64,000 bases of DNA, taken from contig CAZMEV010000001.1 of assembly GCA_964565375.1 (NCBI GenBank), forward strand, positions 1,638 to 65,637. Reading direction: 5' to 3'. This document shows positions 7,694 to 64,000 of this stretch, piece by piece. The first letter of the stretch is position 1. Each line of letters begins with the position of its first letter. A model generated the notes under the pieces. It was not told the origin of the DNA and made no database searches. It saw only the letters and a program-made list of their open reading frames with translations. This DNA is from an uncultured Spirochaetaceae bacterium. Its GTDB lineage: Bacteria > Spirochaetota > Spirochaetia > DSM-27196 > SKKC01. The position numbers were made by a program, and so were the translations under genes.

Positions 7694-7713
7694 GCGGGGT
7701 ATAAATTACAGAT

Positions 7714-8418: not shown

Positions 8419-8425
8419 CGGTATC

Positions 8426-9793
8426 ATGAAAACGCTCTTTGCGCAGACATTTTCCGCGATACTCGGCTCACTGTTCGTCCTGCTTCTGCTTATGGGAGTT
8501 CTGTTTTCCCTGGGGGTGCGCCGAAGCATCAGCGACTGGAACTTCTATCGGGATCAGCGGCTTCAGAATGTGATTCTGCCGGTCCTCTCGCGCACATACC
8601 GGCAATATGGTCAGTTCGATCAGGAAAATGTAGAGCAAAGTGTTACGGACTTTCTTACCCAGAATCAGTTTGTATACGTGTTTAATGCCGACCGGGAGCC
8701 GGTGTTCCTGTATGCGCGAGGCGACATACTGGATCCGGCGGATTACGAAATGGCGGATTCCGGCAACATTCAGGATCTTCCCGGCGGGCGGCCTCCGTCG
8801 GCACTTGTCCAGAATGACGAAGTGGTCGGCTATCTGAGCGCCGGCTCACTCGGCTTTACCAGCGATCTTGCCAATCTTCGGTTTTTGCGCTCAATGGTTC
8901 TCTCAGCGGTTGTCGGAGTGCTTGTGAGCTTTGCTCTGGCAACCGGCGCAGCAGTCGTCTTCAGCCGGAATATGAGTCGACATGCGAGCAATCTCTCGGA
9001 AGGTCTCCGCCGGCTTGCTGACGGGGAACGCGATGTGCGGTTTCCCACGCGCGGAGCCCAGGAGCTGCAGAGTATTGGTGAATCGGCTACGGCACTGCAG
9101 GAACAGTTGTCAAACGAGGAGCGGCTGCGCCGGCAGTGGACTCAGGACATTGCTCATGATCTTCGTACTCCGGTAGCTGCCTTGAAAGCACAGTTCGAGC
9201 TTCTTCAGGAAGGGATTGTTGAGCCGACACCTGAGCGTCTTACCTCCGTGTACGGGGAGGTCGAGCGCATAGACGAGCTTGTCAACGATCTGCGTGAGCT
9301 CAGCCGGCTTGAGTCGCCCGAAATGAAACTCGAGACTGCGGAGATCGATCTGCCGACGTTTGTCCGGCGACTTGAAGGGCGTTTCAAACCACTTGCCGAT
9401 GAACGGGAAGTTACCCTCTCGGTCAGTGCCGAGGACGGTATGGTAGTAGCAGACGAACACATGCTCAGCAGAGCCTTATCGAATATACTCGTGAATGCTG
9501 TCCAGCATACCGACCGCGGTGGGGAAATTGTAGTTGAGGCATCTCAAATGAACGGGCAGGCATACTTCGACATATCGAACACGGGGTATATCGACGAGAA
9601 AGATATTCCGCACGTGTTCGATCGCCTGTATCGCGGCGAGAACAGCCGCGGCTCGCGGGGCAGCGGTCTCGGATTGTCGATAACGAAGGCCATTGCCGAG
9701 GCGCATAACGGAAGTGTTGCCATGCGGCAGAACGGGGACAAAACCGAGGTGCTTTTCTCGGTGAATGCCCACGGTCCGGCATGCGTGCGGTAA
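8426..9793 (+). CDS. Sensor histidine kinase (two TM segments, HAMP, HisKA, HATPase_c)
   Basis: H-box IAHDLRTPV, N-box LSNILVNAVQHT, DISNTG and GSGLGLSI. It lies directly downstream of the response regulator. Confidence 0.9.
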   Translation: MKTLFAQTFSAILGSLFVLLLLMGVLFSLGVRRSISDWNFYRDQRLQNVILPVLSRTYRQYGQFDQENVEQSVTDFLTQNQFVYVFNADREPVFLYARGDILDPADYEMADSGNIQDLPGGRPPSALVQNDEVVGYLSAGSLGFTSDLANLRFLRSMVLSAVVGVLVSFALATGAAVVFSRNMSRHASNLSEGLRRLADGERDVRFPTRGAQELQSIGESATALQEQLSNEERLRRQWTQDIAHDLRTPVAALKAQFELLQEGIVEPTPERLTSVYGEVERIDELVNDLRELSRLESPEMKLETAEIDLPTFVRRLEGRFKPLADEREVTLSVSAEDGMVVADEHMLSRALSNILVNAVQHTDRGGEIVVEASQMNGQAYFDISNTGYIDEKDIPHVFDRLYRGENSRGSRGSGLGLSITKAIAEAHNGSVAMRQNGDKTEVLFSVNAHGPACVR

Positions 9794-9848
9794 CCTGAAA
9801 CGCCGGTGTTTGCTCTGTAATACGTAGAATAAGGGTTATTAAGAACAC

Positions 9849-12623
9849 ATGACAGACGCTATTCTCTCGACGTACCGGATTCAGTTGAATCCCGTATTCA
9901 ATTTTGACGCTGCTTCCGAGCAGCTTGACTATTTCAAAGCCCTCGGGGTTTCGCACGTGTACTGCTCGCCGTATCTGCAGGCGGCCCGTGGAAGCCAGCA
10001 CGGCTACGATGTAGTCGATCACTCGCATGTGAATGAGGAACTCGGCGGTGAAGCCGGTCATGAAGCATTCTGTGCCCGCCTGGGTGAGATCGGCCTGGGC
10101 CAGGTCCTCGATATCGTGCCCAATCATATGGCGGTATCCGTTCCGGAGAATCGGTGGTGGTGGGATGTGCTTGAAAACGGACCAAGCAGCCGCTACGCCG
10201 ATTACTTTGATGTGGATTGGGAGTACCCGCAAGGCTCGCGCGCGAACCAGGTATTGCTGCCGATTCTCGGTAATCATTATGGACGGATTCTGGAATCCGG
10301 GGAAATCCGCGTCGAGCGTGACGGCGGCATGTTTTTTGCCCGGTATTACGACCATCTCTTTCCAATCGATCCGCGGTCGCTGTCCGGACTGCTCGGTCGT
10401 GCTGCCGAACGGGCCGAGCATTCTGAACTCGGCTTCCTTGCGAGCGCGCTCGATTATCTCCCATTCCCGACGGCCACCGACCGGCCGAGTACGAGGCGCC
10501 GGCATCGTGATAAAGAGGTTATTCGCGAGAAACTCGCAACCCTCCTGTCTGAGCACGCCCATCTTCGCCGCGCTGTGGACGCCGAGGTCGATCTCATAAA
10601 TTCGAATGTAGACAGACTCGACGCGTTCCTGTCCCGGCAGAATTACCGTCTCGCCTACTGGCGTATTGCCCGCAGCGATCTGGGATATCGTCGCTTTTTC
10701 GACATTAATAACCTCATTGCAATTCGTGTCGAGGACCAGGATGTGTTTGCCGATACGCACGAGCGTATTACCGACTGGCTTCGTCGAGGAGTAATAGATG
10801 GTCTGCGAATCGATCATGCCGACGGGCTTCGTGATCCTGAACAGTATTTCTCACGGTTGCGCCACGAGGCCGGAAATGCGTGGATTGTTGCTGAGAAAAT
10901 TCTTCATCCCGGCGAGCAGCTTCCGGATGCCTGGTCGGTTGCAGGCACGACCGGATATGACTTTCTGGCGGTAACCGGCGGATTGTTCGTCAGGCAGGAT
11001 TCCGAACGGGCGATGACCGACTTCTATCGCTCCTTCACCGGCGAAGGCGACCCCTATCATGAATACCTCTACGAGGGAAAGCAGCAGGTGTTGCACGATC
11101 TGCTTGGTAGTGACGTGAACCGCCTCGTTGTGTTGCTTTCAGAGGTTTGCGAACATCACAGGCGGTTTCGTGATTTTACCCGTGAGGATATCTCCGAGGC
11201 CCTTATTGAACTGCTGGCCTGTTTCCCGGTCTACCGTACCTACACAAGGGCGAATGAACGGGTGCTGTATGAGCACGATCGCCGGATAATCGAAAACGCT
11301 GTGTCGGAAGCCCGGGAGCGGCGCGAAGATCTCGATGCCGAGCTGTTCGATCTCCTGTACCAGGTACTTACCCTCGAACTCGACGGCGAGAGCGAACGCG
11401 AGTTCGTCATGCGCTTTCAACAGCTGACAGGACCGACGATGGCCAAGGGCGGCGAGGATACCGCATTTTACCAGTATAACCGCCTTGTGTGTCTGAATGA
11501 GGTTGGAAGTGATCCGGGAGTGTTCGGGACGTCTATCGACGAGTTCCACAAGCACATGGAGGAGCGTGCCGTAAGTCATCCGCGTGCAATGCTTTGCTCG
11601 AGCACTCACGACACGAAACGAAGTGAAGATGTGCGTGCTCGACTTGCGGTTGTGAGCGAGTATCCAAGTCGCTGGGCGGAGGCGGTCTGGAGCTGGTCGA
11701 CCATGGCCGACGATTACCGTACCGAACAATGGCCGGATCGCAATATCGAGTATCTTATTTATCAGACGCTTGTGGGCGCTTGGCCGATCGACGAGGATCG
11801 CATGCTCGCATATATCGAAAAGGCCATGCGTGAAGCGAAAACCCATACGACATGGACTTCGCAGAACGAGCTGTACGAAGCCTCGGTGTTTGATTTTGCG
11901 AAAGGCATTATGAACGATTCCGCCATAATGGAATCTATCGAGCGGTTCGTGGAGCTTGTTCGAGTGCCGGGCTACATTAACTCGCTTGCGAATGTTGCTA
12001 TCAAGCTGCTCGGTCCGGGTATTCCGGACATCTATCAGGGATGTGAGCTGTGGGACTTGAGTCTCGTCGATCCTGACAACAGGCGACCGGTCGATTACGC
12101 CAGGCGTCGCTCAATGCTTGAAGCGGTTCAATCGTGTGGTCCGGATGAACTGTGGAAGCGACTTGACGAGGGCGCACCCAAACTTGCGCTTACGACCGCG
12201 TGTCTCAAGCTTCGCGATCGTCACCCCGAAGTGTTCGCCGGGGCCAGAGACGCTGGACCAGCCGGATATAAGAGACTTGAGGTTTCAGGTCCTGCCGCCG
12301 AAAACATCGTCGCGTTCTCGCGGGATGAGTCGATACTCTGCGTCGTTCCGCGCTTTCCGGCGAGTTCCACACTTGAGTATCCGGAGACTACTGTGGCGTT
12401 TCCCCAGGGAACCTTTCGCAATGTTCTGACCGGGAGGGTTCATACCATTTCCGACGGAAGTCCTCTCGATGCCGACGATCTTCTCAGCGAATTCCCGGTC
12501 GGTGTCTTTGAGTCGGTTTCGAGCTCGGATACGGACAGCGTTTCTGGCGCAGGCGCCCCTTCCGGAGGTGCTCGCTCCGCAGGCGCCCCGTCCGGGGACG
12601 ATGGTTCCGGAGGCAATGAATGA
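9849..12623 (+). CDS. treY: Malto-oligosyltrehalose synthase
   Basis: N-terminus STYRIQLNPVFNFDAASEQLDYFKALGVSHVYCSPYLQAARGSQHGYDVVDH...LDIVPNHMAV is the TreY signature. Its size (924 aa) fits, and it ends in a Ser/Gly/Ala low-complexity tail. Confidence 0.9.
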   Translation: MTDAILSTYRIQLNPVFNFDAASEQLDYFKALGVSHVYCSPYLQAARGSQHGYDVVDHSHVNEELGGEAGHEAFCARLGEIGLGQVLDIVPNHMAVSVPENRWWWDVLENGPSSRYADYFDVDWEYPQGSRANQVLLPILGNHYGRILESGEIRVERDGGMFFARYYDHLFPIDPRSLSGLLGRAAERAEHSELGFLASALDYLPFPTATDRPSTRRRHRDKEVIREKLATLLSEHAHLRRAVDAEVDLINSNVDRLDAFLSRQNYRLAYWRIARSDLGYRRFFDINNLIAIRVEDQDVFADTHERITDWLRRGVIDGLRIDHADGLRDPEQYFSRLRHEAGNAWIVAEKILHPGEQLPDAWSVAGTTGYDFLAVTGGLFVRQDSERAMTDFYRSFTGEGDPYHEYLYEGKQQVLHDLLGSDVNRLVVLLSEVCEHHRRFRDFTREDISEALIELLACFPVYRTYTRANERVLYEHDRRIIENAVSEARERREDLDAELFDLLYQVLTLELDGESEREFVMRFQQLTGPTMAKGGEDTAFYQYNRLVCLNEVGSDPGVFGTSIDEFHKHMEERAVSHPRAMLCSSTHDTKRSEDVRARLAVVSEYPSRWAEAVWSWSTMADDYRTEQWPDRNIEYLIYQTLVGAWPIDEDRMLAYIEKAMREAKTHTTWTSQNELYEASVFDFAKGIMNDSAIMESIERFVELVRVPGYINSLANVAIKLLGPGIPDIYQGCELWDLSLVDPDNRRPVDYARRRSMLEAVQSCGPDELWKRLDEGAPKLALTTACLKLRDRHPEVFAGARDAGPAGYKRLEVSGPAAENIVAFSRDESILCVVPRFPASSTLEYPETTVAFPQGTFRNVLTGRVHTISDGSPLDADDLLSEFPVGVFESVSSSDTDSVSGAGAPSGGARSAGAPSGDDGSGGNE

Positions 12624-54033: not shown

Positions 54034-55329
54034 CTATTGCCTGCCGGGTCTGAACGGAAGCTGCTCGAACATTTCCTTTGTTTGTACGCCGGCGATCGTC
54101 GCCTGCTTTGTGTATTTGGTATGCAGACGCGTGGCGCCCTCGATCAGGATCTGCGAGGCGACGCCGAGTTGAATGGACTGCTGTGCTTCGAGAAATGCCG
54201 CGAACTCGTCGCAGATGCGCACGAGCCCACCGTCGAGCGGCCGGTAGTCGTCGCTGTTGTAGCGATTGTCGATCTCTTCGCTTTCGACCTGCTCGACGCC
54301 CTTAGGACTGCTTATCTTGCCGGTGAACTCATCGTCGATGAAGTACCGCATTTCCGCTGCGATTTCCCTGGTCATGTGCGGGTATATTTCTTCAGCTACC
54401 GTTTCATCTTCGATCTTGCGGACGATTTCCGGTAGACCGGGGGTCGCCGTCTTGGTGGGGGCCACAATGTCGCGGGTAACCGACTCGGGAAGGTCGTGAA
54501 AGAGGCCTGCGAAGAAGTTGTTGTACCGCCGTGTGTGACAGGGGTCACGCTGCTCGGTAAGGAGCAGCGCGAATGTCGCCACCATGAGGGAATGTCCGAG
54601 TACGGCCGTCTCGGGAATGCGGGGCGTACGGCTCCAGCGGGTCTGGTAGCGCAGCCGGTCGGCGACACTGATTACGCGGAACAGGTCAAGTTCGAGAATA
54701 AGCTGCCGCATACCGGCGAGATCGAGAAAGGGTTCCATGCGTTTTCGCAGGTGGTTCTCGATAGCGGGAATACGCGGATCGTGGGAGTTCACACCCTTAA
54801 TGATCTGAAACTCACGGTACGTAGAGTAGCTTCGTGCCGCCTCAAGGATCTGCAGGGAGCGCTCGGCGGGTGTGCGATTGCGTTCCATCGGAATTCGCCC
54901 ACCGGAATGTCCCTCAAGTCCAAGTTCCGGGTCGAGACCGAGCTGCAGGGCGGTCACCGGACGCGAGAAGTACTCGCGGAATCGGGACTCGAGCCCATAG
55001 GGGGCGAGCATGGGGGCCACCGAATCGGCGACCCACTGATTGAGCCTGTGGTATTCATCCGGATGCTCGACTCGAATGCGTCTGTGAACGGTTTCCTTGA
55101 TGTCGGAAAGCGCAATCTTTCGAAGCAGATCGAATACCCCGGTGAAGATAATCGTATCCCAGTCGACCTCGCGACCGTCCTGCTCCTCAAGTTTGCCGAG
55201 AAACCATGCAAGCATCATCGCGAACGACCGCCGGTCCATTTCGTTGAGTTCCATGGGCCGCACGAGGTCATTCCATCGCTTTACCGAAAAGCCTCCGAAG
55301 AGGTGAAGGGCTACGGTCTTTTCGATCAT
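54034..55329 (-). CDS. HD-domain phosphohydrolase with tandem YfbR-like repeats (N-terminal repeat degenerate)
   Basis: The second repeat keeps the metal ligands (TAVLGHSLMVA ... AGLFHDLPESVTRDI). The first repeat has NEMDRRSF / VFDLLRKIALSDI at the equivalent positions. It has a 4-nt overlap with the upstream PtsI-like gene. Confidence 0.7.
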   Translation of the reverse strand: MIEKTVALHLFGGFSVKRWNDLVRPMELNEMDRRSFAMMLAWFLGKLEEQDGREVDWDTIIFTGVFDLLRKIALSDIKETVHRRIRVEHPDEYHRLNQWVADSVAPMLAPYGLESRFREYFSRPVTALQLGLDPELGLEGHSGGRIPMERNRTPAERSLQILEAARSYSTYREFQIIKGVNSHDPRIPAIENHLRKRMEPFLDLAGMRQLILELDLFRVISVADRLRYQTRWSRTPRIPETAVLGHSLMVATFALLLTEQRDPCHTRRYNNFFAGLFHDLPESVTRDIVAPTKTATPGLPEIVRKIEDETVAEEIYPHMTREIAAEMRYFIDDEFTGKISSPKGVEQVESEEIDNRYNSDDYRPLDGGLVRICDEFAAFLEAQQSIQLGVASQILIEGATRLHTKYTKQATIAGVQTKEMFEQLPFRPGRQ

Positions 55330-57086
55330 AGCTGCGAGCGTAGTGGATTTGTTTCTGAAACACCAGCCACGCCAAGCGTGCTTGCTACATCACCAAGCAG
55401 GGCGTTCATTTCTTCCATAGTACTGATCCGCGTCATATCTTCGGCGATACCCCGGCACCACGCTTCATCGAGCCGGTCGATGTGCTCGGCGGTCGCGGTG
55501 AGCTGTCCTGGTGCCACACTCACCGCATTCACACCGATCCCGCGGTAGAATGGCAGCAGGAGCGGGTCAGAGGCGGCCTCTCCGCATACCGAAACCGGGA
55601 CGGTGGCCTTCCGCGCACCCACTACGATGCGCCGCACGGTCCGTGCGATCACCGGATGACGTGTGCGATACAGATCCGTAAGGCGGGCATTCGTGCGGTC
55701 GACAGCCAGCATGTACATGACCAGATCGTTCATGCCGATGGACAGGAAATCTGTCTCGGCGGCGAGTTCCTCAGCGACGACCGCCGCAGAGGGGATCTCG
55801 ATCATGGCACCGAGTCTGGGAGCCGCGTTGTGGGAGAGCTCCTCGTCTTCGAGTTCGGCGATGCACCGGTTAAGTTCCCCGCGGGCTTCGCGTACTTCCT
55901 CAACGGTGGAAACCATGGGAAGCATGATATGAAGGTCGGCATCCGGCGCTGCACGGAGCATTGCCCGCAACTGAGTGCGGAACATTGGTCTGTTTGCGAG
56001 CGAAAACCGTATACCGCGAACGCCAAGAAACGGATTGTCCTCGGGCACTTCGCCGGCGAGGAGTTTATCGCCGCCTATGTCCGCGGTACGGAGCGTGACC
56101 TGGCGTTCGGGAAAGAGCGCAACGATATGACGATACATGCGCATCTGCGTTTCCTCATCGACCTGGCCCTGGCGAATAATGAACGGAAACTCGCTTCTGT
56201 ACAGGCCAATGCCCTCGGCAAGGTCTCGGGCTGCGTACGCGTCGGCAAGAATGTTTACGCTTGCAAGCAGACGCATCCCGCGGGTGCGTGTATGGAACTC
56301 GATCTGGCGGTCGACGGAGTCCTGGATGCTCTGTGAGCGGTTTACCCGGCATGCACGATCTTGCTCGCTCTCGTGCCCGATAGGAAGAATATGCCCACGG
56401 TCACCGTCGAGCGTCACAGTCGTCTCATTGGGTACACTGAGAATCTCGCGCGTTGAGGTAGTTATTACAGGAATCCCCAGCGATCGCGCCAGAATAGACA
56501 GATGTGCGGTGAGCGGAATGTTCACGAGCACAACACCGGCAGCGCCGTCTACGGCGAGCCGCAGCAGCTCCGATGGAAAGACATCGGTGAGTACCACGAT
56601 GCGCCCTGAAACAAATGCCCGCTCAGGCGGTTCGGCCGACAGGTTGGTCAGCAACCGGTAACCGAGATCACGTACGTCTTCCGATTTCTCAGCGGTGCGG
56701 TCATTGTCCCGACTGCAAAAGGCCTGAACGAAGGTTTCGATCGTGTTCGTCACAGCTCGCTCGGGAGCCATGCCTTCGCTGACAAGTCTCTGGATTTCGC
56801 CCGAAAAACTCTCATCCTCCAGCATGAGAAGATGGGCGCGAAAGACCAGTTCCACAATGTCGCTGAACCGGTTACCGCCGTCTTCTATGAGCTCGGTAAG
56901 CTGTTCACGGGTACGTGTGAACGCCCGTTGCAGGCGCTCGACGGCGGCATTACTCGATGAGTCTTCCGGCGCAGCGGCCGGTTCATGGCGGTGCGGATCC
57001 TGGTCGAATTGCAGAAGCGGACCGACGGCACTGCCCTGGGAGAGCGAGATACCTCTGATTGGTGCTGTTCGTTTATCAGACCCCAC
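55326..57086 (-). CDS. ptsI: Phosphoenolpyruvate-protein phosphotransferase (PTS enzyme I-like, PEP-utilising enzyme)
   Basis: Phospho-His loop LTAHLSILARSLGIPVI and PEP-binding TIM barrel motifs LYRSEFPFI, IGGDK, GMNDLVMYMLAVDR, VCGEAASDP. The symbol denotes the family only; I saw no HPr or EII gene nearby. Confidence 0.8.
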   Translation of the reverse strand: MGSDKRTAPIRGISLSQGSAVGPLLQFDQDPHRHEPAAAPEDSSSNAAVERLQRAFTRTREQLTELIEDGGNRFSDIVELVFRAHLLMLEDESFSGEIQRLVSEGMAPERAVTNTIETFVQAFCSRDNDRTAEKSEDVRDLGYRLLTNLSAEPPERAFVSGRIVVLTDVFPSELLRLAVDGAAGVVLVNIPLTAHLSILARSLGIPVITTSTREILSVPNETTVTLDGDRGHILPIGHESEQDRACRVNRSQSIQDSVDRQIEFHTRTRGMRLLASVNILADAYAARDLAEGIGLYRSEFPFIIRQGQVDEETQMRMYRHIVALFPERQVTLRTADIGGDKLLAGEVPEDNPFLGVRGIRFSLANRPMFRTQLRAMLRAAPDADLHIMLPMVSTVEEVREARGELNRCIAELEDEELSHNAAPRLGAMIEIPSAAVVAEELAAETDFLSIGMNDLVMYMLAVDRTNARLTDLYRTRHPVIARTVRRIVVGARKATVPVSVCGEAASDPLLLPFYRGIGVNAVSVAPGQLTATAEHIDRLDEAWCRGIAEDMTRISTMEEMNALLGDVASTLGVAGVSETNPLRSQL

Positions 57087-57099
57087 GATACTTCAAATG

Positions 57100-58452
57100 C
57101 TACGCCGTCGGTTTTCGGTCGGTCAACCGAGACTTTCGCTTCTTTCCCGGGACGCCGGAGGGGCTACGGCTGCTCGCTCTGCCGACGACACGGGAAACCA
57201 TCAGACTAAGATATTTGTGAACGAGGCGAAACGGACGAAGCACAATGTGAAGCGGGCGCAGTGCGGGAGGAAGAGGCCAGAGGTCCTGTTCGCGGTCGGT
57301 AGGTTGTGTTATGTGGGCAAGGACGGCGGGAAGGTACGCGAACCGGTCGGCGGTCTGCTCGCGGCTTTGAAGGTATGCGGCGGTGCGGGCGATCGGATTT
57401 TCGCGGCTTGTTCCGTCGAATGCCCGAATTCGTTCCGCCGCTTTCCGGGCCAAGGCGCGTGCATGGGGGTCGGTCGCCGCCCGTTCGAGCAGCTCGTCGG
57501 CAATGGGCGCGTCGAGCAGGGAAAAGGCGAGTAGAATACCAGTGTGAAGCAGACGGAGCGTGCCCGTCGCCCTCGCGCGGGCGTGGAGCTCGCGGCACAT
57601 CTCGGGCGTCAGGCGCGCGGTAAGAACCGCAATATCACAGACCATATACAGGCGCATCCAGTCATGCTTGCCCCCGTGATGCGCGGCGAGATATACGATC
57701 TCGTCGGTCGGATCGAGCGCTCGAACATCCCTGCCCATAATTTCGACCGTGGTCGCGCGCGCGATCGCCGCTTCCGGGTCAAGCCCGAACGCCACGTCCG
57801 GGGGAAGAAACCGCCAATGCAGCTCTACGTGAATTCCGGTACGCGGATGGTCCAGATTGTACTCGCAGTTATCGACGAGAAGCCGTCCGAGCGGGCGTGC
57901 AGCCGACGCAGCCTCGGCGATATAGCCGTCGTTTCGAAGTATTTCTATGGCATCCCGAATGGTCGCCGGAGGCAGCAGAAAATCGAGATCCCGGAAAGAC
58001 CGACGCAGTATACTCCCGTAGCCGCGCTCGGCGAGCGCCGGGCCCTTCATGACCGCGGCCCGGATCCCGCACGCCTCGAAACGCGCGAGAATCCGCAGCA
58101 GCTCCAGCGTCATTCCGAGCACATACCGTCTGTCGGCCCGGGCGGGTGACTGCGGATCTTCGTGAAGTCCGGCAACTCCATGAAGATTTTTAAGGTTGAT
58201 GTATTCCTCTTCGTCGCCGGCGTGAGTCGCGGATTTCGCGTTCCCGCGAAATCCCAGGTCCGATGCGCTTTCACAGAGCAGGCGTTCGAACGTTCCGTTT
58301 CCGGCCACCGCCCGGGAGCGAACCGAGGCCCGGATTGCCCGAAAACGCCCGTTCGCTCCGACGGCGATCGGGCATTGATCCGGATTCCCGGCCGACCCTG
58401 ACGCTCCGGTCGTTGGTGCGGGCAGGTGCCAGGCGGCTACTTCCGGTCTCAT
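57100..58452 (-). CDS. Nucleotidyltransferase-family protein (uncharacterised NTase type often seen in RiPP clusters)
   Basis: ILARFEACGIRAAVMKGPALAE...FRDLDFLLP...GIHVELHW pattern of minimal NTase-fold proteins. I chose ATG 58452 because it forms an ATGA overlap with the ABC exporter stop. Confidence 0.65.
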   Translation of the reverse strand: MRPEVAAWHLPAPTTGASGSAGNPDQCPIAVGANGRFRAIRASVRSRAVAGNGTFERLLCESASDLGFRGNAKSATHAGDEEEYINLKNLHGVAGLHEDPQSPARADRRYVLGMTLELLRILARFEACGIRAAVMKGPALAERGYGSILRRSFRDLDFLLPPATIRDAIEILRNDGYIAEAASAARPLGRLLVDNCEYNLDHPRTGIHVELHWRFLPPDVAFGLDPEAAIARATTVEIMGRDVRALDPTDEIVYLAAHHGGKHDWMRLYMVCDIAVLTARLTPEMCRELHARARATGTLRLLHTGILLAFSLLDAPIADELLERAATDPHARALARKAAERIRAFDGTSRENPIARTAAYLQSREQTADRFAYLPAVLAHITQPTDREQDLWPLPPALRPLHIVLRPFRLVHKYLSLMVSRVVGRASSRSPSGVPGKKRKSRLTDRKPTA

Positions 58453-60404
58453 ACCGGCACTCCCTGCAGCTGATTCAACTGCATGCGGTACATGGTTTCG
58501 TACAATCCTCCGCGTGCGCACAGCTCCTCGTGGGTTCCCTCTTCGGTTATACGGCCGTCGCGCATGACATAGATCCGGTCGGCCATGCGCGCGGCTGCCG
58601 CCCGGTGGGTTACCAGAAGGACGCTGCGGTGCTCGGCCCAGAGACGAATCGTAGCAAGGAGCCGGGCCTCGGAGTCCGGATCAAGCCCACTTGTCGGCTC
58701 GTCGAGAATCGCGAAGCTCGAGTCGCGGTAGAAGGTCCGCGCGAGTGCGAGCTTCTTCCACTGGCCTCCACTCGGTTCAATGCCTTCCTCAAGAAATCTT
58801 CCGAGCTGTGTCTTCCACCCCGAGGGCAGCGACGCAATGAAGCTTCCGGCACACGCGGAATCAGCGGCGGCGTCGAGCGCCGTGCGGTCGGGCGGTCTGT
58901 CGCTTCGGCCGAACCAGAGATTCTCCTCGGCGGTGTAGTGATACTGCGCGTAGTCCTGGAACAGGGCGGTTATCGAGTTCCACCAGAGATCTTTCGGTAT
59001 GCCGGAAAGCGGCGTGTCGCCGTAGCGGATCGTTCCCCGGTCGGGCTCGTAGAAGCCGCAGGCGAGTTTCATGAGTGTGGATTTGCCGGCCCCGTTGTCG
59101 CCGACGAGGGCCACAAGCTCCCCGGGGCCCATCGACAGCGATACGCGGTCGAGCACAAGGCGATCGGTTCCGGGGTAGGAGAAGGAGACATCCCGGAGCG
59201 TCAGCGGGGCCGGCCGGACACGGGCCGCGTTATGAGCGTTGCTGCCGCGGGTACTCCGGGTGGACGTCGCGGCGCCGGACTCCGGTTCGTCGGCCGGTGT
59301 CCGCGTATTTGCGGCGCCGTCGTCGGTGGGAAGACGAAGGAACTCGAATACGGTTGCGAGAAAGAGGTTGCTTTCGTACAGTCCGTTAACAGCTCCCGAC
59401 AGTTCACTTGCGAGTGCCTGGCCCTTCTGCACCGCCTGCAGAAGCAGTACGAAATCGCCGAGCGTCGTTTCGCCGCGCAGCGCCGCTAACGCCACGACGG
59501 CCACAACGGCGAAAACGACAAGTGTCTGAAGGGAATAGGCGATTGCTTCTCCCTTGGATCGGGCCGCTGCGAGCGCGAGACGCTCCCCGCGAAGCTCGTT
59601 GCGTTTCTCCGCCGAGCGGCGTGCGAGCAGACGGCCAAGGCCGAAAAGCCGAAGCTCCTTGGCGTGTTCCCGTCCGGTGAGAAGCCAGTTAAGGTAGACC
59701 ACGTGGCGCTCGGCCGACGTGCGTCGCATTCGCCAGCGGTAATGGCGACGTGAGTGAAGCACACGTGCGAGCACGAGCGGCAGCGAGGCAACGAGCAGGG
59801 CGGGAAGGCCGTACCACGGAAGGACGGCGATAAGGATAACCGCGATGCCCGCAAGCGAAAGTCCGGTGCGAAGCAGAAGCATAAGCTCGTCTACAACCTG
59901 CGTCGGGCGAAACGGAGCCTCCTCCTGGGCCCGGTGTAACGCGTCAAAGAATGCCGGGCGCTCGTAGTACGTCAGCGGGACATCTATCGATTTCGCATGG
60001 ATTCGTGACTGTATGAAATCCCCGAGTGTGTGTGCCTGCATTTCCCGGACGTACAGTGCGGCTGATTTCAGAATCATCGAGACGATCGTGGCCCCTGCGG
60101 CGATAGCAATAAGGCCGAGCACGCGCGCCCCGGTGGTCTCAAGCCATGCGTTTGATCCGGGAAACGAGGTTACTCCCTCGGTTATGGTATTGACGATCAG
60201 ACGGACTACGTACAGCGGAACGAGCGGAACGAGCGCCTGCGCGGTGACCACGCACATCGAGAGCAGGGTGACGCCGGGAGCACTTTGCCACACCAGCGAA
60301 AGCGCTTGGAGAAGGTGAAAGCGTCCGCCGTTGCTGGTTACGGTCGTGCGAGCCGCAGTCGACGGTTCGTCCGGCTTTGCGGAGCGAAACCCTTCCGCGC
60401 TCAT
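58449..60404 (-). CDS. Fused TMD-NBD ABC exporter (lasso-peptide D-type candidate)
   Basis: Six N-terminal TM segments, Walker A GDNGAGKST, signature PSGGQWKKLALA, Walker B FAILDEPTSGLD. ATGA overlaps on both sides. Confidence 0.9.
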   Translation of the reverse strand: MSAEGFRSAKPDEPSTAARTTVTSNGGRFHLLQALSLVWQSAPGVTLLSMCVVTAQALVPLVPLYVVRLIVNTITEGVTSFPGSNAWLETTGARVLGLIAIAAGATIVSMILKSAALYVREMQAHTLGDFIQSRIHAKSIDVPLTYYERPAFFDALHRAQEEAPFRPTQVVDELMLLLRTGLSLAGIAVILIAVLPWYGLPALLVASLPLVLARVLHSRRHYRWRMRRTSAERHVVYLNWLLTGREHAKELRLFGLGRLLARRSAEKRNELRGERLALAAARSKGEAIAYSLQTLVVFAVVAVVALAALRGETTLGDFVLLLQAVQKGQALASELSGAVNGLYESNLFLATVFEFLRLPTDDGAANTRTPADEPESGAATSTRSTRGSNAHNAARVRPAPLTLRDVSFSYPGTDRLVLDRVSLSMGPGELVALVGDNGAGKSTLMKLACGFYEPDRGTIRYGDTPLSGIPKDLWWNSITALFQDYAQYHYTAEENLWFGRSDRPPDRTALDAAADSACAGSFIASLPSGWKTQLGRFLEEGIEPSGGQWKKLALARTFYRDSSFAILDEPTSGLDPDSEARLLATIRLWAEHRSVLLVTHRAAAARMADRIYVMRDGRITEEGTHEELCARGGLYETMYRMQLNQLQGVPV

Positions 60405-61474
60405 CCTCGACTCCGGTTCATTGAGCTGCAGGTACTGCCTTCGCGGCTCGAACCGCTTGAATGCCGGACATTTCTCACAACGTCGAAGGGCTCAGACAAC
60501 ACTCGTGAGTCTGCGGCGGAACCACGGAGATCGGCGGTCAGGATCTCGGCGACCGATGGAAGTGCGTCATATCCTGTCGGGTAGCGAAGGCGCATTACCG
60601 GAACGTGTTCCACCAGCGTTGAGAACCGGTGGAATCTCCTCTCGCGAAGCGAGTGAAGATCGCTGACGAGCTCCGCGAGGAACGCCGACCGGATAAGCCC
60701 GATAATCGCGACCCCGGGCGGAATGCGTTCGAGTTCTACCGCGCTGCCGGGTTGCCGGCGATCGAGAAGATAGATACGGTGCACAGGTCGCGCAGATGTT
60801 TCGAACGATCCAAGATCGCGAGCCGGTACACTGAGCTTCCCGTATCCCGGATGAACTCGCGTGTAGCCTTCGCATGTACCCACGAACAGTTCAGCCTGCT
60901 CGGGCGTCAACTTGATCTGCGGAAACGCCGGGCGACAACAGGTGTATCCTCCGCACGGTTCAACGGCAGCAATGTCGTCCCCGAGCAGGGAGAAGCCTCG
61001 ATTGAGAAGGGAAGCAACAAGGGTGCTTTTGCCGCCGCCCCGATCGGCAAGAAACAGCGCTGCCCGGCCATCGAGTGCGAGCGCCCCACCGTGAAGTGCC
61101 GGTATTCCCGACCGCTCGAGATACCATGCCAGCACATGACCGAGCAGACAGATTTCGACCATATGCGCGAGCGACGGCTTGTGAAGCGCGCAGGTAATAC
61201 GTCCCGGATACAGCGAAAAATCCGCTATTCGCGGGAATCGCATACGGTGTCCGGCCGGAATCGAGTAAACCGAAACCGCTGCTTCGCCGTATCGGTTCGT
61301 CTCCCGGGACGCCGCGATACGCATTTCCTGTGAATCGAACGGAAGGTGAGTACCGAAACTGCATTCAAAGATAAGGTCGACCGGTGCGCCGGAATCGGCA
61401 CGGTGCATCGGTGTCCTGAACTCATACTCCGTTTCCACGCACATGCCGAAAAGCAGCACCTTCCTTCTGTTCAC
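60401..61474 (-). CDS. HPr kinase/phosphorylase-like serine kinase (RiPP tailoring kinase candidate)
   Basis: LHGGALALDGRAALFLADRGGGKSTLVASLLNRGFSLLGDDI matches the P-loop core of the HprK C-terminal domain. It lacks the HprK N-terminal domain. Confidence 0.75.
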   Translation of the reverse strand: MNRRKVLLFGMCVETEYEFRTPMHRADSGAPVDLIFECSFGTHLPFDSQEMRIAASRETNRYGEAAVSVYSIPAGHRMRFPRIADFSLYPGRITCALHKPSLAHMVEICLLGHVLAWYLERSGIPALHGGALALDGRAALFLADRGGGKSTLVASLLNRGFSLLGDDIAAVEPCGGYTCCRPAFPQIKLTPEQAELFVGTCEGYTRVHPGYGKLSVPARDLGSFETSARPVHRIYLLDRRQPGSAVELERIPPGVAIIGLIRSAFLAELVSDLHSLRERRFHRFSTLVEHVPVMRLRYPTGYDALPSVAEILTADLRGSAADSRVLSEPFDVVRNVRHSSGSSREGSTCSSMNRSRG

Positions 61475-62865
61475 GATACATTTCCTTCATGCATGGGGTC
61501 CTCAATCTGTTCCTCGGGGAACGATTCGCAACAACGATCGGCGCTGTCGGACGAACGGAATTCGAGGAGACCGAATTCGGACAGTTCCGTGAGCAGGTTT
61601 TCTACATCATGGCATACCGTTTCACGGTCTCCCTGATACTGCGACAGAATCTCATCCACACACCCGTCGACGTTCCCATGCCGGATAATTCCGTACCACA
61701 TGGAAACGGCGCTTCCGCTCAGTTCGAAGTAGTCGACCGCGCCCGGCCGACCTTCGGATCGCGGCGTAATACGGGCAAGCTGAAGCCCCTGGTCCGACGG
61801 GCACCATACGACCCCGTCAGCCGCTCTAATCGACCCGTTTCCGCCGTGAATAAGATCCGGTGTCGTTTTTGACAGCGTTTCGAGTTCCTCGACACCGTTT
61901 AATTCCGCACGGCGGATTCGAAGCCGGTTCGATAGGCATCGATTCGCCGGCGCAAGATACCACCCGTCCTCGATTTCCCCGGTTTCCTGGTTCCAGGCCC
62001 GGCTGTCGGGTTCATGCCAGGCGAACGACACATACTCGGGAATGCCGATCCAGTAGGCGTCGGTGAACATCCTGCTTCGTTCCGCATACCACTCCGGATA
62101 GCGGTTCACGAAGCGTGCAGGCGCGAGATCCTCGAGTGGGTGTGCCGTTATGCACGCCTGAACCGCCGGTTCGTTCTCTTCGATCGACCGACACAGATCT
62201 GTCGGCGCAAAAAAGGGACAGAAAACGATGCCGCCTCCAGCCTGCAATGGCTCCGGCGGGGCGTTGCCTGCGTCGGACCTGTGCATCGCTCGCAGTGTTT
62301 CCCGGAAACGAATCCCCGAAAGCGCGCAGTCGTCCACGATACAGATAGTTCTGTCGTTTTTCGGAATATTCCGGGTGCCCGCGATGAATATCTGATCCGG
62401 CTTCAAATCGAGAATGTAGGCGAGCAGCCCCATGACCACGATTCCGCCCCGGGGCATTGCCGCGAAGTTCCAGCTGTGAATCTCTTTATTTCCGAAGCGG
62501 GCGATAAGAATGTCCGCCAGACCGAGTGCGGCCGCCTCGGCGTCGCCGTACTCGACGAAGGTATGCCTCGGAAGAATTTCTTCAAGTGTTTCCCTGAGTG
62601 TGATCAGTTGTCCGGTGTGTCCGGGTACATCCGGTGCGAACACGGCGAGCAGCGGTGATGGAGCGGGGCGTGCGACCAGACGCAACCCCTCCATGCGTTT
62701 CCAGGCAGCGTTTGCCTGTATTGTCATACAGAGGGCCCGAAGTCCGCTCTCAACCGAGTCAGCGGCCGTGAAATCGAGAAGGTGCTCGACGGCACACGTG
62801 CCGTCGAGCAGGGGAACAACGTGGAACGGGGGTGGCGTGGTATCTGCGGTATTCACAGGACTCAC
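61471..62865 (-). CDS. Fusion protein: phosphoribosyltransferase-like domain plus a C-terminal PqqD-like RiPP recognition element
   Basis: PRTase motifs MPRGGIVVMGLLA and ICIVDDCALSGIRF. The C-terminal ~90 aa VDYFELSGSAVSMWYGIIRHGNVDGCVDEILSQYQGDRETVCHDVENLLTELSEFGLLEF read as PqqD. The start may be GTG 62865 or GTG 62856. Confidence 0.65.
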   Translation of the reverse strand: MSPVNTADTTPPPFHVVPLLDGTCAVEHLLDFTAADSVESGLRALCMTIQANAAWKRMEGLRLVARPAPSPLLAVFAPDVPGHTGQLITLRETLEEILPRHTFVEYGDAEAAALGLADILIARFGNKEIHSWNFAAMPRGGIVVMGLLAYILDLKPDQIFIAGTRNIPKNDRTICIVDDCALSGIRFRETLRAMHRSDAGNAPPEPLQAGGGIVFCPFFAPTDLCRSIEENEPAVQACITAHPLEDLAPARFVNRYPEWYAERSRMFTDAYWIGIPEYVSFAWHEPDSRAWNQETGEIEDGWYLAPANRCLSNRLRIRRAELNGVEELETLSKTTPDLIHGGNGSIRAADGVVWCPSDQGLQLARITPRSEGRPGAVDYFELSGSAVSMWYGIIRHGNVDGCVDEILSQYQGDRETVCHDVENLLTELSEFGLLEFRSSDSADRCCESFPEEQIEDPMHEGNVS

Positions 62866-62903: not shown

Positions 62904-63098
62904 TTACCTGCCGCCGGCGTTCGTAATACTGCCGGACTCACGCCCGCGCGCTTGTCCGGGAAGAAGATCCGAGCCGGGATTTGTCTGTCCGACCTGTGTC
63001 AGTTCGGCAATAGACCCCCAGCGCCTGAGACGCGGGCTCGTGTACGGTTTGCGTACCGAGTCACGGGACAAGCCTGACGTTTGATCTGTCATGGACAT
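62904..63098 (-). CDS. Lasso-peptide precursor candidate (64 aa from ATG 63098; 62 aa from ATG 63092)
   Basis: AGGAGG lies just upstream of the ATGs at 63098 and 63092. The leader contains Y-T-S-P-R-L-R-R-W-G-S-I-A-E-L-T-Q, an exact fit to YxxPxLx3Gx5Tx. It is followed by VGQTNPGSD..., with an Asp positioned for an 8- or 9-residue macrolactam. The ORF sits between the cyclase and RRE genes. Confidence 0.7.
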   Translation of the reverse strand: MSMTDQTSGLSRDSVRKPYTSPRLRRWGSIAELTQVGQTNPGSDLLPGQARGRESGSITNAGGR

Positions 63099-63267: not shown

Positions 63268-64000
63268 CTAATCCCAGTGGGATCTCAGCCACATCTCCAG
63301 CGAAAGGGTCGACCAGAGATCGAACCGCGGCATGTCACCGTTGACGAAGCGGTTAAACTGTTCGGTAAGTGCCGCTTCATCGACATAGCCGAGCGCTGCG
63401 CATCGGCTGTCGGTGATCAATTCGCGCACCTTCTCCCGTGCCTCGAAGCGAAGGGTGTGCAGGTAGTGCGGTTCGGGGGAAACCTTGTCGGCGGCAAGCC
63501 GGGCTTCCTCCGGCATGATTCCGGTCCCCGCGCGTTTTGCCAGGCGCTTCACTTCGAGCGCGCGATCGACTATGTGCTGGGGACATGCGAGAATAAACTC
63601 GGCTATGCGCCTGTCGCTCCACGGGTCGGCGAATCCCATTCCGGATTCCGCGGTAAGTCGTTCCGTATAGGCGACGCCGCGGGTCACCAGGGGGGAGTAG
63701 ATGTGAATATAGCGATTCCGGGCGTCCGACCGGGGCCAGACATCGGCGCGCACACGCACCGGATCACGATCGGGAAGCCCTGCCCGGGCGAGAAAAGATC
63801 GTCTTACGTGACAGGCCGCCCTCGCCTGAGGTCCGGAGAATCGTCCGTTTCGAAGTGCTATAGCTATCTCCCTCGGAACGAGGTCCGATAATGCGGGTCG
63901 GAGAAGATAACGCAGGAACGAAGTAGTGCGGCGTTCGTTGAATATCCGTGACAACTCGTTGAGCTCGCGAACCGTATCACGTACGTGCCCGCTCCTAAGA
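63268..64000 (-). CDS. Asparagine-synthetase-like lasso cyclase, C-terminal part; 5' end is outside the window
   Basis: The frame stays open to nt 64000, beyond the TTG used by the ORF track. The tail GFADPWSDRRIAEFILACPQH...KRLAKRAGTGIMPEE matches the conserved C-terminal region of AsnB-type/lasso macrolactam synthetases. Confidence 0.75.
   Translation of the reverse strand, partial: LRSGHVRDTVRELNELSRIFNERRTTSFLRYLLRPALSDLVPREIAIALRNGRFSGPQARAACHVRRSFLARAGLPDRDPVRVRADVWPRSDARNRYIHIYSPLVTRGVAYTERLTAESGMGFADPWSDRRIAEFILACPQHIVDRALEVKRLAKRAGTGIMPEEARLAADKVSPEPHYLHTLRFEAREKVRELITDSRCAALGYVDEAALTEQFNRFVNGDMPRFDLWSTLSLEMWLRSHWD

What the first reader, a model, noticed from the sequence alone, without database searches (positions are those of the whole stretch)
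61471..62865. Phosphoribosyltransferase-like domain fused to the PqqD-type RiPP recognition element
The N-terminal two thirds carry type-I PRTase hallmarks: the PRPP-loop-like MPRGGIVVMGLLAYIL and the acidic motif ICIVDDCALSGIRF. The last ~90 residues (about 61474-61758) are a textbook PqqD/RRE sequence.

RREs are normally stand-alone or fused to the leader peptidase or cyclase. A PRTase-RRE fusion implies leader-guided delivery of a phosphoribosyl-type, or nucleotide-dependent, chemistry to the peptide. Alternatively the PRTase fold has been recruited as a non-catalytic module replacing the missing B2 partner.
Basis: inference. Interest (0 to 1): 0.6.

Follow-up and report, generated by a model that had tools for sequence, protein, structure and literature searches.

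The report
Phosphoribosyltransferase-fold domain fused to lasso RRE
This gene really does join an enzyme-like domain with an intact sugar-phosphate (PRPP) binding site to the small domain that grips lasso-peptide precursors; it belongs to a widespread, unstudied protein family that always sits next to a peptide kinase and probably adds a new chemical decoration to the peptide.

Summary
Window 61471-62865 (-) is one 464-aa gene. Residues ~101-245 form a type I phosphoribosyltransferase (PRTase) core, and both hallmark motifs are invariant across the family. Residues ~346-436 form a lasso B1-type PqqD/RRE domain. The evidence is Pfam hits, an AlphaFold model (pLDDT 89.7), and Foldseek matches to HGXPRT, OPRT, XGPRT and TbiB1.

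It is not a one-off. An exhaustive search found 427 family representatives, almost all about 400 aa and carrying the RRE. They occur in Halomonas, Spirochaetes, Acidobacteriota, Gemmatimonadota, Cyanobacteria and other groups. Databases call them only "PqqD family protein".

The gene is nearly always adjacent to, and often overlaps, an HprK-like kinase gene. It usually follows a distinct lasso cyclase and a precursor with a YxxPxL...T leader. In the closest clade the precursor tail carries a conserved G-S-[V/I] serine.

The window has no B2 peptidase. A third of complete related loci carry a normal B1+B2 pair in addition, so the domain is an extra module, not a general B2 substitute.

Best reading (inferred, untested): a leader-guided tailoring enzyme or subunit that works with the kinase, related to the paeninodin/LPP phospho-tailoring module. 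I rate it a new variant of a known kind, of moderately high interest.

The parts
61471..62865 (-). PRTase-like / RRE fusion gene (464 aa; likely true start at 62856)
   Evidence: ORF listing and translation. An identical ENA gene call P0001 and a 60%-identical collinear homologue P0002. Family of 427 representatives.
62566..62826 (-). N-terminal alpha/beta subdomain (residues ~14-100), no known family; contains near-invariant R66 and G77
   Evidence: AlphaFold secondary structure and pLDDT above 90. Conservation. No Pfam hit.
62131..62565 (-). Type I PRTase-like core (residues ~101-245)
   Evidence: Foldseek hits to HGXPRT, OPRT and XGPRT at E 5e-5 to 1e-3. Profile alignments to PRTases. PF00156 and PF24390 hits among family members.
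62443..62454 (-). PPi-loop motif P138-R139-G140-G141 (RGG invariant in the family)
   Evidence: Invariant columns. Aligned to the SRGG of XPRT and the PRGG of TT1426.
62308..62340 (-). PRPP-binding motif I176-V-D178-D179-C-A-L-S183-G184-I-R186
   Evidence: D178, D179 and G184 are invariant; V177 and R186 are near-invariant. Aligned to the DDxxxTG motif of XPRT, HPRT, OPRT and TT1426.
61831..62130 (-). Trp-rich subdomain (residues ~246-345) in the position of a PRTase hood; W283 invariant; D246, W259, W272, G274, E285, P286, W302 and P306 near-invariant
   Evidence: Conservation. AlphaFold model. No Pfam family.
61558..61830 (-). Lasso B1-type PqqD/RRE domain (residues ~346-436: three to four strands followed by three helices)
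   Evidence: PF05402 above its cut-off. Profile against TbiB1 E 3.8e-16. Foldseek TbiB1 TM 0.83-0.85.
61474..61557 (-). Low-confidence acidic C-terminal tail (residues 437-464), shared only with P0002
   Evidence: pLDDT below 50. Other relatives end directly after the RRE.
62904..63098 (-). Lasso-type precursor peptide gene: leader ...KPYTSPRLRRWGSIAELTQ, core VGQTNPGSD(9)LLPGQARGRESGS(22)ITNAGGR
   Evidence: NF033521 lasso leader hit. 90% identical in L001. The same leader and core pattern recurs in about 40 related loci.
63268..64000 (-). 3' part of the lasso cyclase gene (Asn-synthase-like), cut by the window end; 630 aa in L003
   Evidence: PF00733. For the full-length protein the best NCBIfam hit is NF033535 lasso cyclase, E 5e-74, below its cut-off. 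Cyclase HMM hit.
60401..61474 (-). HprK-like P-loop kinase gene; its start overlaps the fusion gene's stop by 4 bp
   Evidence: TIGR04352 HprK-related kinase A E 2.6e-10, and a weak Hpr_kinase_C hit. Adjacent in 68 of 83 loci.
58449..60404 (-). MsbA-like ABC exporter gene; 4-bp overlap with the kinase gene
   Evidence: PF00005 and MsbA-type NCBIfam hits. Present in 21 of 40 complete loci.
57100..58521 (-). NTP_transf_5 nucleotidyltransferase gene (the called start at 58452 overlaps the ABC stop by 4 bp)
   Evidence: PF14907 E 1.6e-40. Gene call in L003. Present in 22 of 40 complete loci.

Best explanation
The protein is a leader-peptide-guided tailoring enzyme, or the catalytic or adaptor subunit of one, in a lasso-type RiPP pathway.

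Proposed steps:
1. Its C-terminal B1-type RRE binds the YxxPxL motif of the precursor leader.
2. This holds the core peptide next to the N-terminal PRTase-fold domain, which keeps an intact PPi loop and PRPP motif and so binds PRPP or another 5-phosphoribosyl or nucleotide ligand.
3. It works as a pair with the HprK-like kinase encoded next to it, whose gene overlaps it by 4 bp. The pair most likely targets the conserved serine of the G-S-[V/I] motif in the peptide tail. The kinase phosphorylates the serine, and the PRTase domain transfers a phosphoribosyl-type group to that serine or to its phosphate.
4. The NTP_transf_5 enzyme and the MsbA-like exporter then complete and export the product.

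Shown: the fold, motif conservation, the fusion, gene linkage, and the precursor pattern.
Inferred: RRE-leader binding (by homology to TbiB1 and LppB), cooperation with the kinase, the serine as target, and any phosphoribosyl transfer.
For: - Fold and motifs: AlphaFold pLDDT 89.7. Foldseek matches type I PRTases and TbiB1. The PPi-loop and PRPP motifs align in register with XPRT and TT1426.
- Conservation: R139, G140, G141, D178, D179 and G184 are invariant across 81 sequences at about 30% identity. A purely structural domain would be expected to lose these.
- Fusion: 78 of 81 members carry PqqD.
- The RRE is of the lasso B1 kind, and the cognate precursors carry the YxxPxL...T leader.
- Linkage: the HprK-like gene is adjacent in 68 of 83 loci, and in 37 of 40 loci with at least 6 kb on both sides; the genes often overlap.
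- The protein is additional to B1+B2 in 13 of 40 complete loci. That is the expected pattern for a tailoring enzyme with its own RRE.
- 25 of 27 close-clade precursors keep a G-S-[V/I/...] serine in an otherwise variable tail.
- Published precedent: HprK-like kinases (poly)phosphorylate a serine of lasso and LPP precursors within RRE + kinase + NTP-transferase + MsbA modules. The NTP-transferase there appears to need an unidentified partner or a prior modification (PMC13381572; PMC9266682).
Against: - No biochemical data exist for any member.
- The window protein alone does not reach any PRTase Pfam threshold.
- Sequence-level matches to solved PRTases are weak, E 0.008-2.
- The loop in the position of the PRTase flexible catalytic loop (residues ~162-173) is variable and carries indels.
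- To my knowledge, no type I PRTase is known to use a peptide acceptor.
- The conserved GS[VI] serine is not evident in the more distant clades such as Acidobacteriota and Chloroflexota.
- The window cluster lacks a leader peptidase, so the pathway as encoded here is incomplete or uses an unknown step.
Confidence: 0.5

Rival explanations
1. The protein is a non-catalytic adaptor. The RRE recruits the precursor, and the PRTase-fold domain is only a docking or regulatory platform for the HprK-like kinase and/or the cyclase, perhaps sensing PRPP or a nucleotide as PyrR and PurR do. The only chemistry at the serine would be phosphorylation.
For: - Tight pairing with the kinase gene.
- The flexible-loop region is not conserved.
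- PRTase-fold regulators exist (PyrR, PurR; established knowledge).
- The known LPP and paeninodin modules need only a plain RRE for the kinase and the peptidase.
Against: - The PPi-loop and PRPP-motif residues, and many residues of the Trp-rich subdomain, are invariant. That is more conservation than a docking surface needs.
- Discrete B1 proteins of about 90 aa already serve as adaptors in the same clusters, so a 340-aa addition suggests an added function.
Confidence: 0.27
2. The protein replaces B1/B2. In clusters without a B2 peptidase, such as the window's, it serves as the only RRE for the cyclase. Together with the kinase it would substitute for leader removal, or it would present the precursor to a protease encoded elsewhere.
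For: - There is no B2 in the 64-kb window or in L003.
- 27 of 40 complete related loci lack B2 within 6-10 kb.
- The cyclase next to this gene is a distinct lineage, 28-30% identical to cyclases that sit beside B1/B2. This suggests co-adaptation of a C-A-PRT.RRE-K module.
- In Cyanobacteria the pair sits next to a CHAT protease.
Against: - The fold is PRTase, with no peptidase match among the Foldseek hits.
- No conserved Cys, His or Ser catalytic set is present.
- Clusters such as L022 and L007 have B1+B2 as well as this protein and a single cyclase.
- B2 may simply lie elsewhere in the genome; this could not be checked.
Confidence: 0.13
3. The PRTase domain makes a small-molecule substrate, an unusual nucleotide or phosphoribosyl donor, for the NTP_transf_5 enzyme rather than acting on the peptide. 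The RRE would serve only to co-localise it.
For: - The LPP study proposed that the NTP-transferase needs a partner that makes a rare substrate.
- Canonical PRTases act on small bases.
Against: - NTP_transf_5 is present in only 22 of 40 complete loci, whereas the kinase is present in 37 of 40.
- Fusing a metabolite-making enzyme to an RRE has no obvious advantage.
Confidence: 0.07

Closest known systems
Lasso peptide B1 proteins (discrete RREs: TbiB1 5V1U/5V1V, TfuB1 6JX3, PbaB1 9X90)
   Same: The C-terminal ~90 residues have the same fold and a close profile match (E 3.8e-16 to TbiB1; TM 0.83-0.85). The cognate precursors carry the YxxPxL...T leader that these RREs bind.
   Different: B1 proteins are about 90 aa and stand alone, or are fused N-terminally to the B2 peptidase. 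Here the RRE is C-terminal to a 340-aa PRTase-fold region, and a third of related clusters contain a normal B1 as well.
Paeninodin-type and LPP phospho-tailoring module (RRE LppB + HprK-like kinase LppK + NTP-transferase LppN + MsbA-like LppD; PMC13381572)
   Same: The same set of partner genes is present: HprK-like kinase, NTP_transf_5-type transferase, MsbA-like exporter and RRE. There is a conserved serine in the peptide. The module occurs either co-located with or independent of lasso cyclases, and the cyanobacterial loci lack a cyclase as LPP clusters do.
   Different: - Those modules use a plain RRE and are reported as restricted to Bacillota.
- Here the RRE carries a PRTase-fold domain.
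- The hosts here are Pseudomonadota, Spirochaetota, Acidobacteriota, Gemmatimonadota, Cyanobacteria and others.
- The serine here is internal (GS[VI]) rather than C-terminal or at position 3.
- The associated peptidase is B2, CHAT or none, rather than SpI.
Type I phosphoribosyltransferases (XGPRT 1A95/4JIT, HGXPRT 5BQO, OPRT 4OHC, putative PRTase TT1426 1WD5)
   Same: The Rossmann-like core is shared. The PPi loop (xRGG) and the PRPP motif (hydrophobic stretch, then DD-x3-[ST]-G) align in register.
   Different: - Sequence similarity is below family thresholds.
- There is an extra N-terminal subdomain, and a Trp-rich subdomain replaces the base-binding hood.
- The last Thr of the phosphate loop is Arg (R186).
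- The flexible loop is not conserved.
- The likely acceptor is a peptide rather than a base.
Other RRE-enzyme fusions in RiPP pathways (for example McjB-type RRE-peptidase, and RRE-containing radical SAM, cyclodehydratase and dehydratase enzymes)
   Same: The principle is the same: an RRE fused to a modifying domain delivers the core peptide through leader binding.
   Different: In the literature and databases I could search, no PRTase-fold partner has been described.

Membership tests
PqqD-type RiPP recognition element (lasso B1 kind) | Pfam PF05402 match above the gathering score | tested here: met
   27.8 bits against a cut-off of 23.4, residues 378-434. 78 of 81 relatives also match.
PqqD-type RiPP recognition element (lasso B1 kind) | Winged-helix fold: a three-stranded sheet followed by three helices, superposable on solved B1 proteins | tested here: met
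   AlphaFold strands 352-356, 361-366 and 377-382 and helices 385-396, 399-409 and 414-430. Foldseek TbiB1 TM 0.83-0.85, rmsd 2.5.
PqqD-type RiPP recognition element (lasso B1 kind) | A cognate precursor with the [Y/W]xxPx[L/V/I] leader motif encoded nearby | tested here: met
   The leader KPYTSPRLRRWGSIAELTQ lies 38 nt upstream. The same motif occurs in about 40 related loci.
PqqD-type RiPP recognition element (lasso B1 kind) | Physical binding of the leader peptide | not testable with these tools
   Needs pull-down, ITC or co-crystallisation.
Type I phosphoribosyltransferase superfamily | PRTase core fold | tested here: met
   Foldseek against PDB: HGXPRT, OPRT and XGPRT at E 5e-5 to 1e-3, probability 1.00.
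Type I phosphoribosyltransferase superfamily | PRPP-binding motif (two acidic residues after a hydrophobic strand, then x3-[ST]-G) | tested here: met
   I-V-D178-D179-C-A-L-S183-G184 aligns to IDDLVDTG of XPRT and VDDGVATG of TT1426. D178, D179 and G184 are invariant.
Type I phosphoribosyltransferase superfamily | PPi-binding loop after the first core strand | tested here: met
   P138-R-G-G141 aligns to the SRGG of XPRT and the PRGG of TT1426. It is invariant.
Type I phosphoribosyltransferase superfamily | Conserved flexible catalytic loop | tested here: inconclusive
   The equivalent segment, residues ~162-173, is variable and has indels in the family. Catalytic loops differ between PRTase families.
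Type I phosphoribosyltransferase superfamily | Pfam Pribosyltran PF00156 (or PRTase-CE PF24390) above the gathering score | tested here: not met
   Window protein: no PF00156 hit, and PF24390 at 20 bits against a cut-off of 27. Only 11 and 19 of 81 relatives match at E < 0.01.
Type I phosphoribosyltransferase superfamily | PRPP-dependent phosphoribosyl transfer | not testable with these tools
   Requires an enzyme assay.
Lasso peptide biosynthetic gene cluster | Asn-synthase-like macrolactam cyclase | tested here: met
   Window 63268-64000 is the 3' part. The full-length protein in L003 hits NF033535 best, E 5e-74, although below the curated cut-off of 525 bits.
Lasso peptide biosynthetic gene cluster | Precursor with Thr at leader position -2 and an Asp or Glu at core position 7-9 | tested here: met
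   ...ELT(-2)Q | VGQTNPGSD(9). The first core residue is Val rather than the usual Gly.
Lasso peptide biosynthetic gene cluster | Transglutaminase-like leader peptidase B2 | tested here: not met
   A B2 HMM built from related loci finds nothing in the window at E <= 1. None is present in the upstream 5.6 kb of L003. B2 is present in 19 of 83 related loci.
Paeninodin/LPP-type phospho-tailoring module | HprK-like kinase + NTP-transferase + MsbA-like exporter + RRE encoded together | tested here: met
   Window genes 60401-61474, 57100-58521, 58449-60404 and the RRE, compared with PMC13381572.
Paeninodin/LPP-type phospho-tailoring module | Serine (poly)phosphorylation of the precursor | not testable with these tools
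   Only a conserved GS[VI] serine is seen. Mass spectrometry is needed.

The most novel reading that the evidence does not exclude
The family catalyses a RiPP modification not yet described. It would carry out leader-guided transfer of a 5-phosphoribosyl group from PRPP, or the reverse reaction on a nucleotide, onto the conserved tail serine or onto the phosphate or diphosphate that the partner HprK-like kinase installs. The product would be a phospho(ribosyl)-decorated lasso peptide, or a linear peptide in Cyanobacteria. It would also be the first type I PRTase fold known to act on a peptide.
Probability: 0.3. Interest if true: 0.8.

Novelty: new variant of a known kind. Interest (0 to 1): 0.62.

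Why it matters
RRE-fused enzymes point to new RiPP chemistry, and no PRTase fold has been linked to peptide modification in the literature I could search.

- The family is large: 427 representatives at 50% identity, in more than 80 species genomes across many phyla. Some hosts are culturable Halomonas, Billgrantia and Litchfieldella strains with complete genomes.
- Databases label these ~400-aa proteins only "PqqD family protein", so about 340 residues of each are effectively unannotated.
- The family extends the phospho-tailoring module, recently described only in Bacillota, to Gram-negative and other phyla.
- It offers a candidate for the "missing partner" that the LPP study invoked for the NTP-transferase.
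- Many of these clusters contain a cyclase but no leader peptidase. That is a concrete, testable puzzle for lasso biosynthesis.

Tried and rejected
- AlphaFold with only two sequences failed (pLDDT 34.5). The rerun with 81 family members succeeded.
- The search for homologous proteins with the window protein found only itself and P0002. With the 81-sequence alignment it found only 3 proteins, a limit of the word index. The exhaustive profile search was what revealed the family.
It worked with 13 sequences.
- PADLOC defence models gave no hit for the fusion protein, the kinase or the NTP-transferase.
- Literature searches for lasso, PqqD or RRE combined with phosphoribosyl(transferase), and for PRTase-CE, found nothing relevant. 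The Tietz 2017 and Zhu 2016 papers are not held.
- I rejected a sequencing frameshift joining two genes. The architecture is conserved in nearly all relatives. One Halomonas copy (L014, and P0200 from a related strain) is split by an in-frame stop.
- I rejected a hidden B2 peptidase in the N-terminal region: there are no transglutaminase fold hits and no conserved Cys/His.
- The 131/141-aa ORF and the CN_hydrolase upstream of the cyclase in L003 were checked as possible peptidases. The small ORF has no Pfam hit, and both occur only in the window's close relatives.
Full report
**1. The observation**

Window 61471-62865 on the minus strand is one uninterrupted ORF of 464 codons. The two quoted motifs are there: MPRGGIVVMGLLAYIL at residues 137-152 and ICIVDDCALSGIRF at residues 174-187. 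Pfam places a PqqD domain at residues 378-434 above its gathering score (27.8 against 23.4 bits). It gives only a sub-threshold PRTase-CE match at residues 160-241 (E 7e-4). NCBIfam adds a weak lasso PqqD chaperone match. An identical protein (P0001) and a 60%-identical, fully collinear one (P0002) exist in public assemblies. The fusion is therefore not a local frameshift.

**2. What the N-terminal region is**

An exhaustive profile search with residues 1-340 (window plus P0002) found 427 representatives at E <= 1e-3, of which 381 had E <= 1e-10. Almost all are 380-430 aa long.

- Of 81 full-length members, 78 carry PqqD, 11 match Pribosyltran PF00156 (best E 1.3e-6) and 19 match PRTase-CE.
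- Invariant across these ~30%-identical sequences are R139, G140, G141, L152, D178, D179, G184 and W283. P138, V177 and R186 are near-invariant, as is a set of Trp, Glu and Pro residues between 246 and 306.
- AlphaFold2 on two sequences was useless (pLDDT 34.5). On the 81-sequence alignment it gave pLDDT 89.7 and pTM 0.87.
- Foldseek against the PDB returned type I PRTases (HGXPRT 5BQO, OPRT 4OHC, XGPRT 4JIT and 1A95 and others; E 5e-5 to 1e-3, probability 1.00). For the C-terminus it returned TbiB1 bound to its leader (TM 0.83-0.85, 26-28% identity).
- At sequence level the family profile hits TbiB1 (3.8e-16), TfuB1, LppB (9X8Z) and PbaB1 (9X90) strongly, and several PRTases weakly.
- A profile of the core alone aligns PRGG with the SRGG PPi loop of XPRT and with the PRGG of TT1426. 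It aligns VDDCALSG with their IDDLVDTG and VDDGVATG PRPP motifs.

The anatomy is therefore:

| Residues | Part |
|---|---|
| ~14-100 | N-terminal alpha/beta subdomain |
| ~101-245 | PRTase core |
| ~246-345 | Trp-rich subdomain in the position of a hood |
| ~346-436 | B1-type RRE |
| 437-464 | Disordered acidic tail |

**3. Context in the window**

The minus-strand gene order is:

- cyclase (63268 to the window end)
- precursor (62904-63098)
- this gene
- HprK-like kinase (60401-61474)
- MsbA-like ABC exporter (58449-60404)
- NTP_transf_5 (57100-58521)

The last four genes each overlap the next by 4 bp.

The contig L003 covers the same locus and extends further. It shows a full 630-aa cyclase whose best NCBIfam match is the lasso cyclase (E 5e-74). 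Upstream lie a CN_hydrolase and a small unknown ORF, but no B2. A B2 HMM built from related loci finds nothing in the whole 64-kb window.

The precursor reads ...KPYTSPRLRRWGSIAELTQ | VGQTNPGSDLLPGQARGRESGSITNAGGR. It matches a lasso leader model and is 90% identical in the homologous locus.

**4. Context elsewhere**

A scan of species-representative genomes returned 80 loci. The hosts include many Halomonas, Billgrantia and Litchfieldella isolates, some with complete genomes. They also include Spirochaetaceae, Opitutia, Gemmatimonadota, Acidobacteriota, Chloroflexota, Actinomycetota, Cyanobacteria and others.

I clustered all ORFs of the 83 loci and searched them with HMMs built from those clusters.

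| Partner gene | All 83 loci | 40 loci with >= 6 kb on both sides |
|---|---|---|
| HprK-like kinase | 68 (nearly always directly adjacent) | 37 |
| Cyclase | 61 | 36 |
| NTP_transf_5 | 24 | 22 |
| ABC exporter | 28 | 21 |
| B2 | 19 | 13 |

- Wherever B2 occurs, a discrete ~90-145-aa RRE (B1) lies next to it.
- In some loci everything forms one operon with a single cyclase: L022 is B1-B2-C-A-PRT.RRE-K-D-N, and L007 is N-D-C-A-PRT.RRE-K-B2-B1.
- In Litchfieldella and Halomonas double clusters, B1/B2 sit beside a second cyclase that is only 28-30% identical to the one next to this gene. In L016 and L017 they also sit beside separate precursors that end in Ser.
- The conserved unit is therefore C-A-PRT.RRE-K, with its own cyclase lineage.
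- In Cyanobacteria the pair occurs as CHAT protease - kinase - PRT.RRE with no cyclase within 10 kb.

**5. Precursors**

About 40 loci have a recognisable precursor immediately upstream. All share the leader Y-x-x-P-x-L-x2-3-[W]G-x5-6-T-x.

In the clade closest to the window the core begins [V/T/A/L]-G-x-T-x-P-G-x-D, with Asp at position 9. In 25 of 27 of these the tail keeps a G-S-[V/I/...] serine, either about 4 or about 12 residues after the ring Asp. More distant clades have G-G...D(8) cores without an obvious shared serine motif.

**6. Mechanism**

Shown:
- a PRTase fold with a conserved ligand-binding site
- fusion to a B1-type RRE
- obligatory linkage to an HprK-like kinase
- occurrence in addition to B1/B2

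From the literature:
- HprK-like kinases of lasso clusters (PadeK, ThcoK, PsmK) phosphorylate, often repeatedly, a serine of the linear precursor. An NTP-transferase homologue adds hexoses to that phosphate in pseudomycoidin (PMC9266682; PMC8498205).
- In the newly described LPP family, the core set is RRE + HprK-like kinase + NTP-transferase + MsbA-like pump + a leader peptidase. The kinase polyphosphorylates one serine. The NTP-transferase was inactive and was proposed to need an unidentified partner or a prior modification (PMC13381572).

Inference: the protein is a leader-guided tailoring enzyme or subunit that acts with the kinase on the conserved serine. It most plausibly adds a phosphoribosyl-type group to the serine or to its phosphate. 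I put this at about 0.5.

The rivals are:
- a non-catalytic adaptor or regulator for the kinase (0.27)
- a substitute for the B1/B2 function in B2-less clusters (0.13)
- a maker of a small-molecule substrate (0.07)

**7. Comparison and novelty**

- The RRE half meets every testable criterion for a lasso B1-type RRE.
- The N-terminal half meets the fold and motif criteria of the type I PRTase superfamily. It fails the Pfam thresholds and lacks a conserved flexible loop. It is best called a divergent PRTase-fold domain, not a member of any characterised PRTase family.
- The gene set is the same as the paeninodin/LPP phospho-tailoring module, but with a PRTase-fold domain added to the RRE, and in phyla outside Bacillota.
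- Public annotation calls these proteins "PqqD family protein", "PqqD family peptide modification chaperone" or "hypothetical". The only copy named "phosphoribosyltransferase" is P0200 from Halomonas sp. E14, which is N-terminal only. The related locus L014 is split by an in-frame stop.
- I found no paper describing the fusion. Several key subscription papers could not be read.

**8. Verdict**

This is a new variant of a known kind, an RRE-fused RiPP tailoring enzyme. It is widespread, unannotated and experimentally tractable.

Noticed in passing
L044, L054, L055, L057, L051 (also L040, L081), around locus coordinates 7000-11200: In Cyanobacteria the kinase and the PRTase-RRE gene sit directly after a CHAT-domain (caspase-like) protease gene. 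No lasso cyclase lies within 10 kb, and a housekeeping gatB often follows. This looks like a linear-peptide (LPP-like) version of the system with a different leader peptidase. No precursor was looked for.
   Followed up: partly
L016 273-9490, L017, L026 558-8281, L037 5555-9441, L034: Some loci carry two lasso cyclases. The one beside B1/B2 in the Halomonas/Litchfieldella double clusters (L016, L026) is only 28-30% identical to the one beside the PRTase-RRE gene. L016 and L017 also encode three or four extra precursors that end in ...PS or ...SS (a C-terminal Ser, as in kinase-modified paeninodin-type peptides).
   Followed up: partly
window 62904-63098 (-) and related precursors: If Thr is at leader position -2 as usual, the first core residue is Val, Thr, Ala or Leu rather than Gly, and the ring would close on Asp9. 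This is an unusual N-terminal residue for a lasso macrolactam.
   Followed up: no
L003 1704-3280 (just beyond the window's 64000 end); L001 1780-3357: A CN_hydrolase (nitrilase-superfamily amidase, 353-356 aa) and a 112-141-aa ORF with no Pfam match lie directly upstream of the cyclase. They occur only in the window's closest relatives. Their relation to the cluster, for example as a stand-in peptidase, is unknown.
   Followed up: partly
L014 9917-11179 (Halomonas sp. E19); P0200 (Halomonas sp. E14): In L014 the fusion gene is split by an in-frame stop into a 278-aa PRTase part and a 120-aa RRE part. P0200, a 278-aa N-terminal-only copy from Halomonas sp. E14, is the only family member that NCBI names 'phosphoribosyltransferase'.
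   Followed up: partly
window 54034-57086 (-): Immediately downstream of the cluster on the same strand lie a PtsP/enzyme-I-like PEP-utilising protein (55326-57086) and an HD-domain YfbR-like phosphohydrolase (54034-55329), which overlap each other by 4 bp. Whether they belong to the cluster, for example in phosphoryl supply or removal, was not examined.
   Followed up: no
L069 6112-7773, L079 5093-7693, L059 11111-13402, L063 3700-6444: A large protein family (cluster 53, 10 loci, 550-900 aa) recurs next to the cyclase in Acidobacteriota and Chloroflexota loci. One member has SdrD_B and CarboxypepD_reg-like domains.
   Followed up: no
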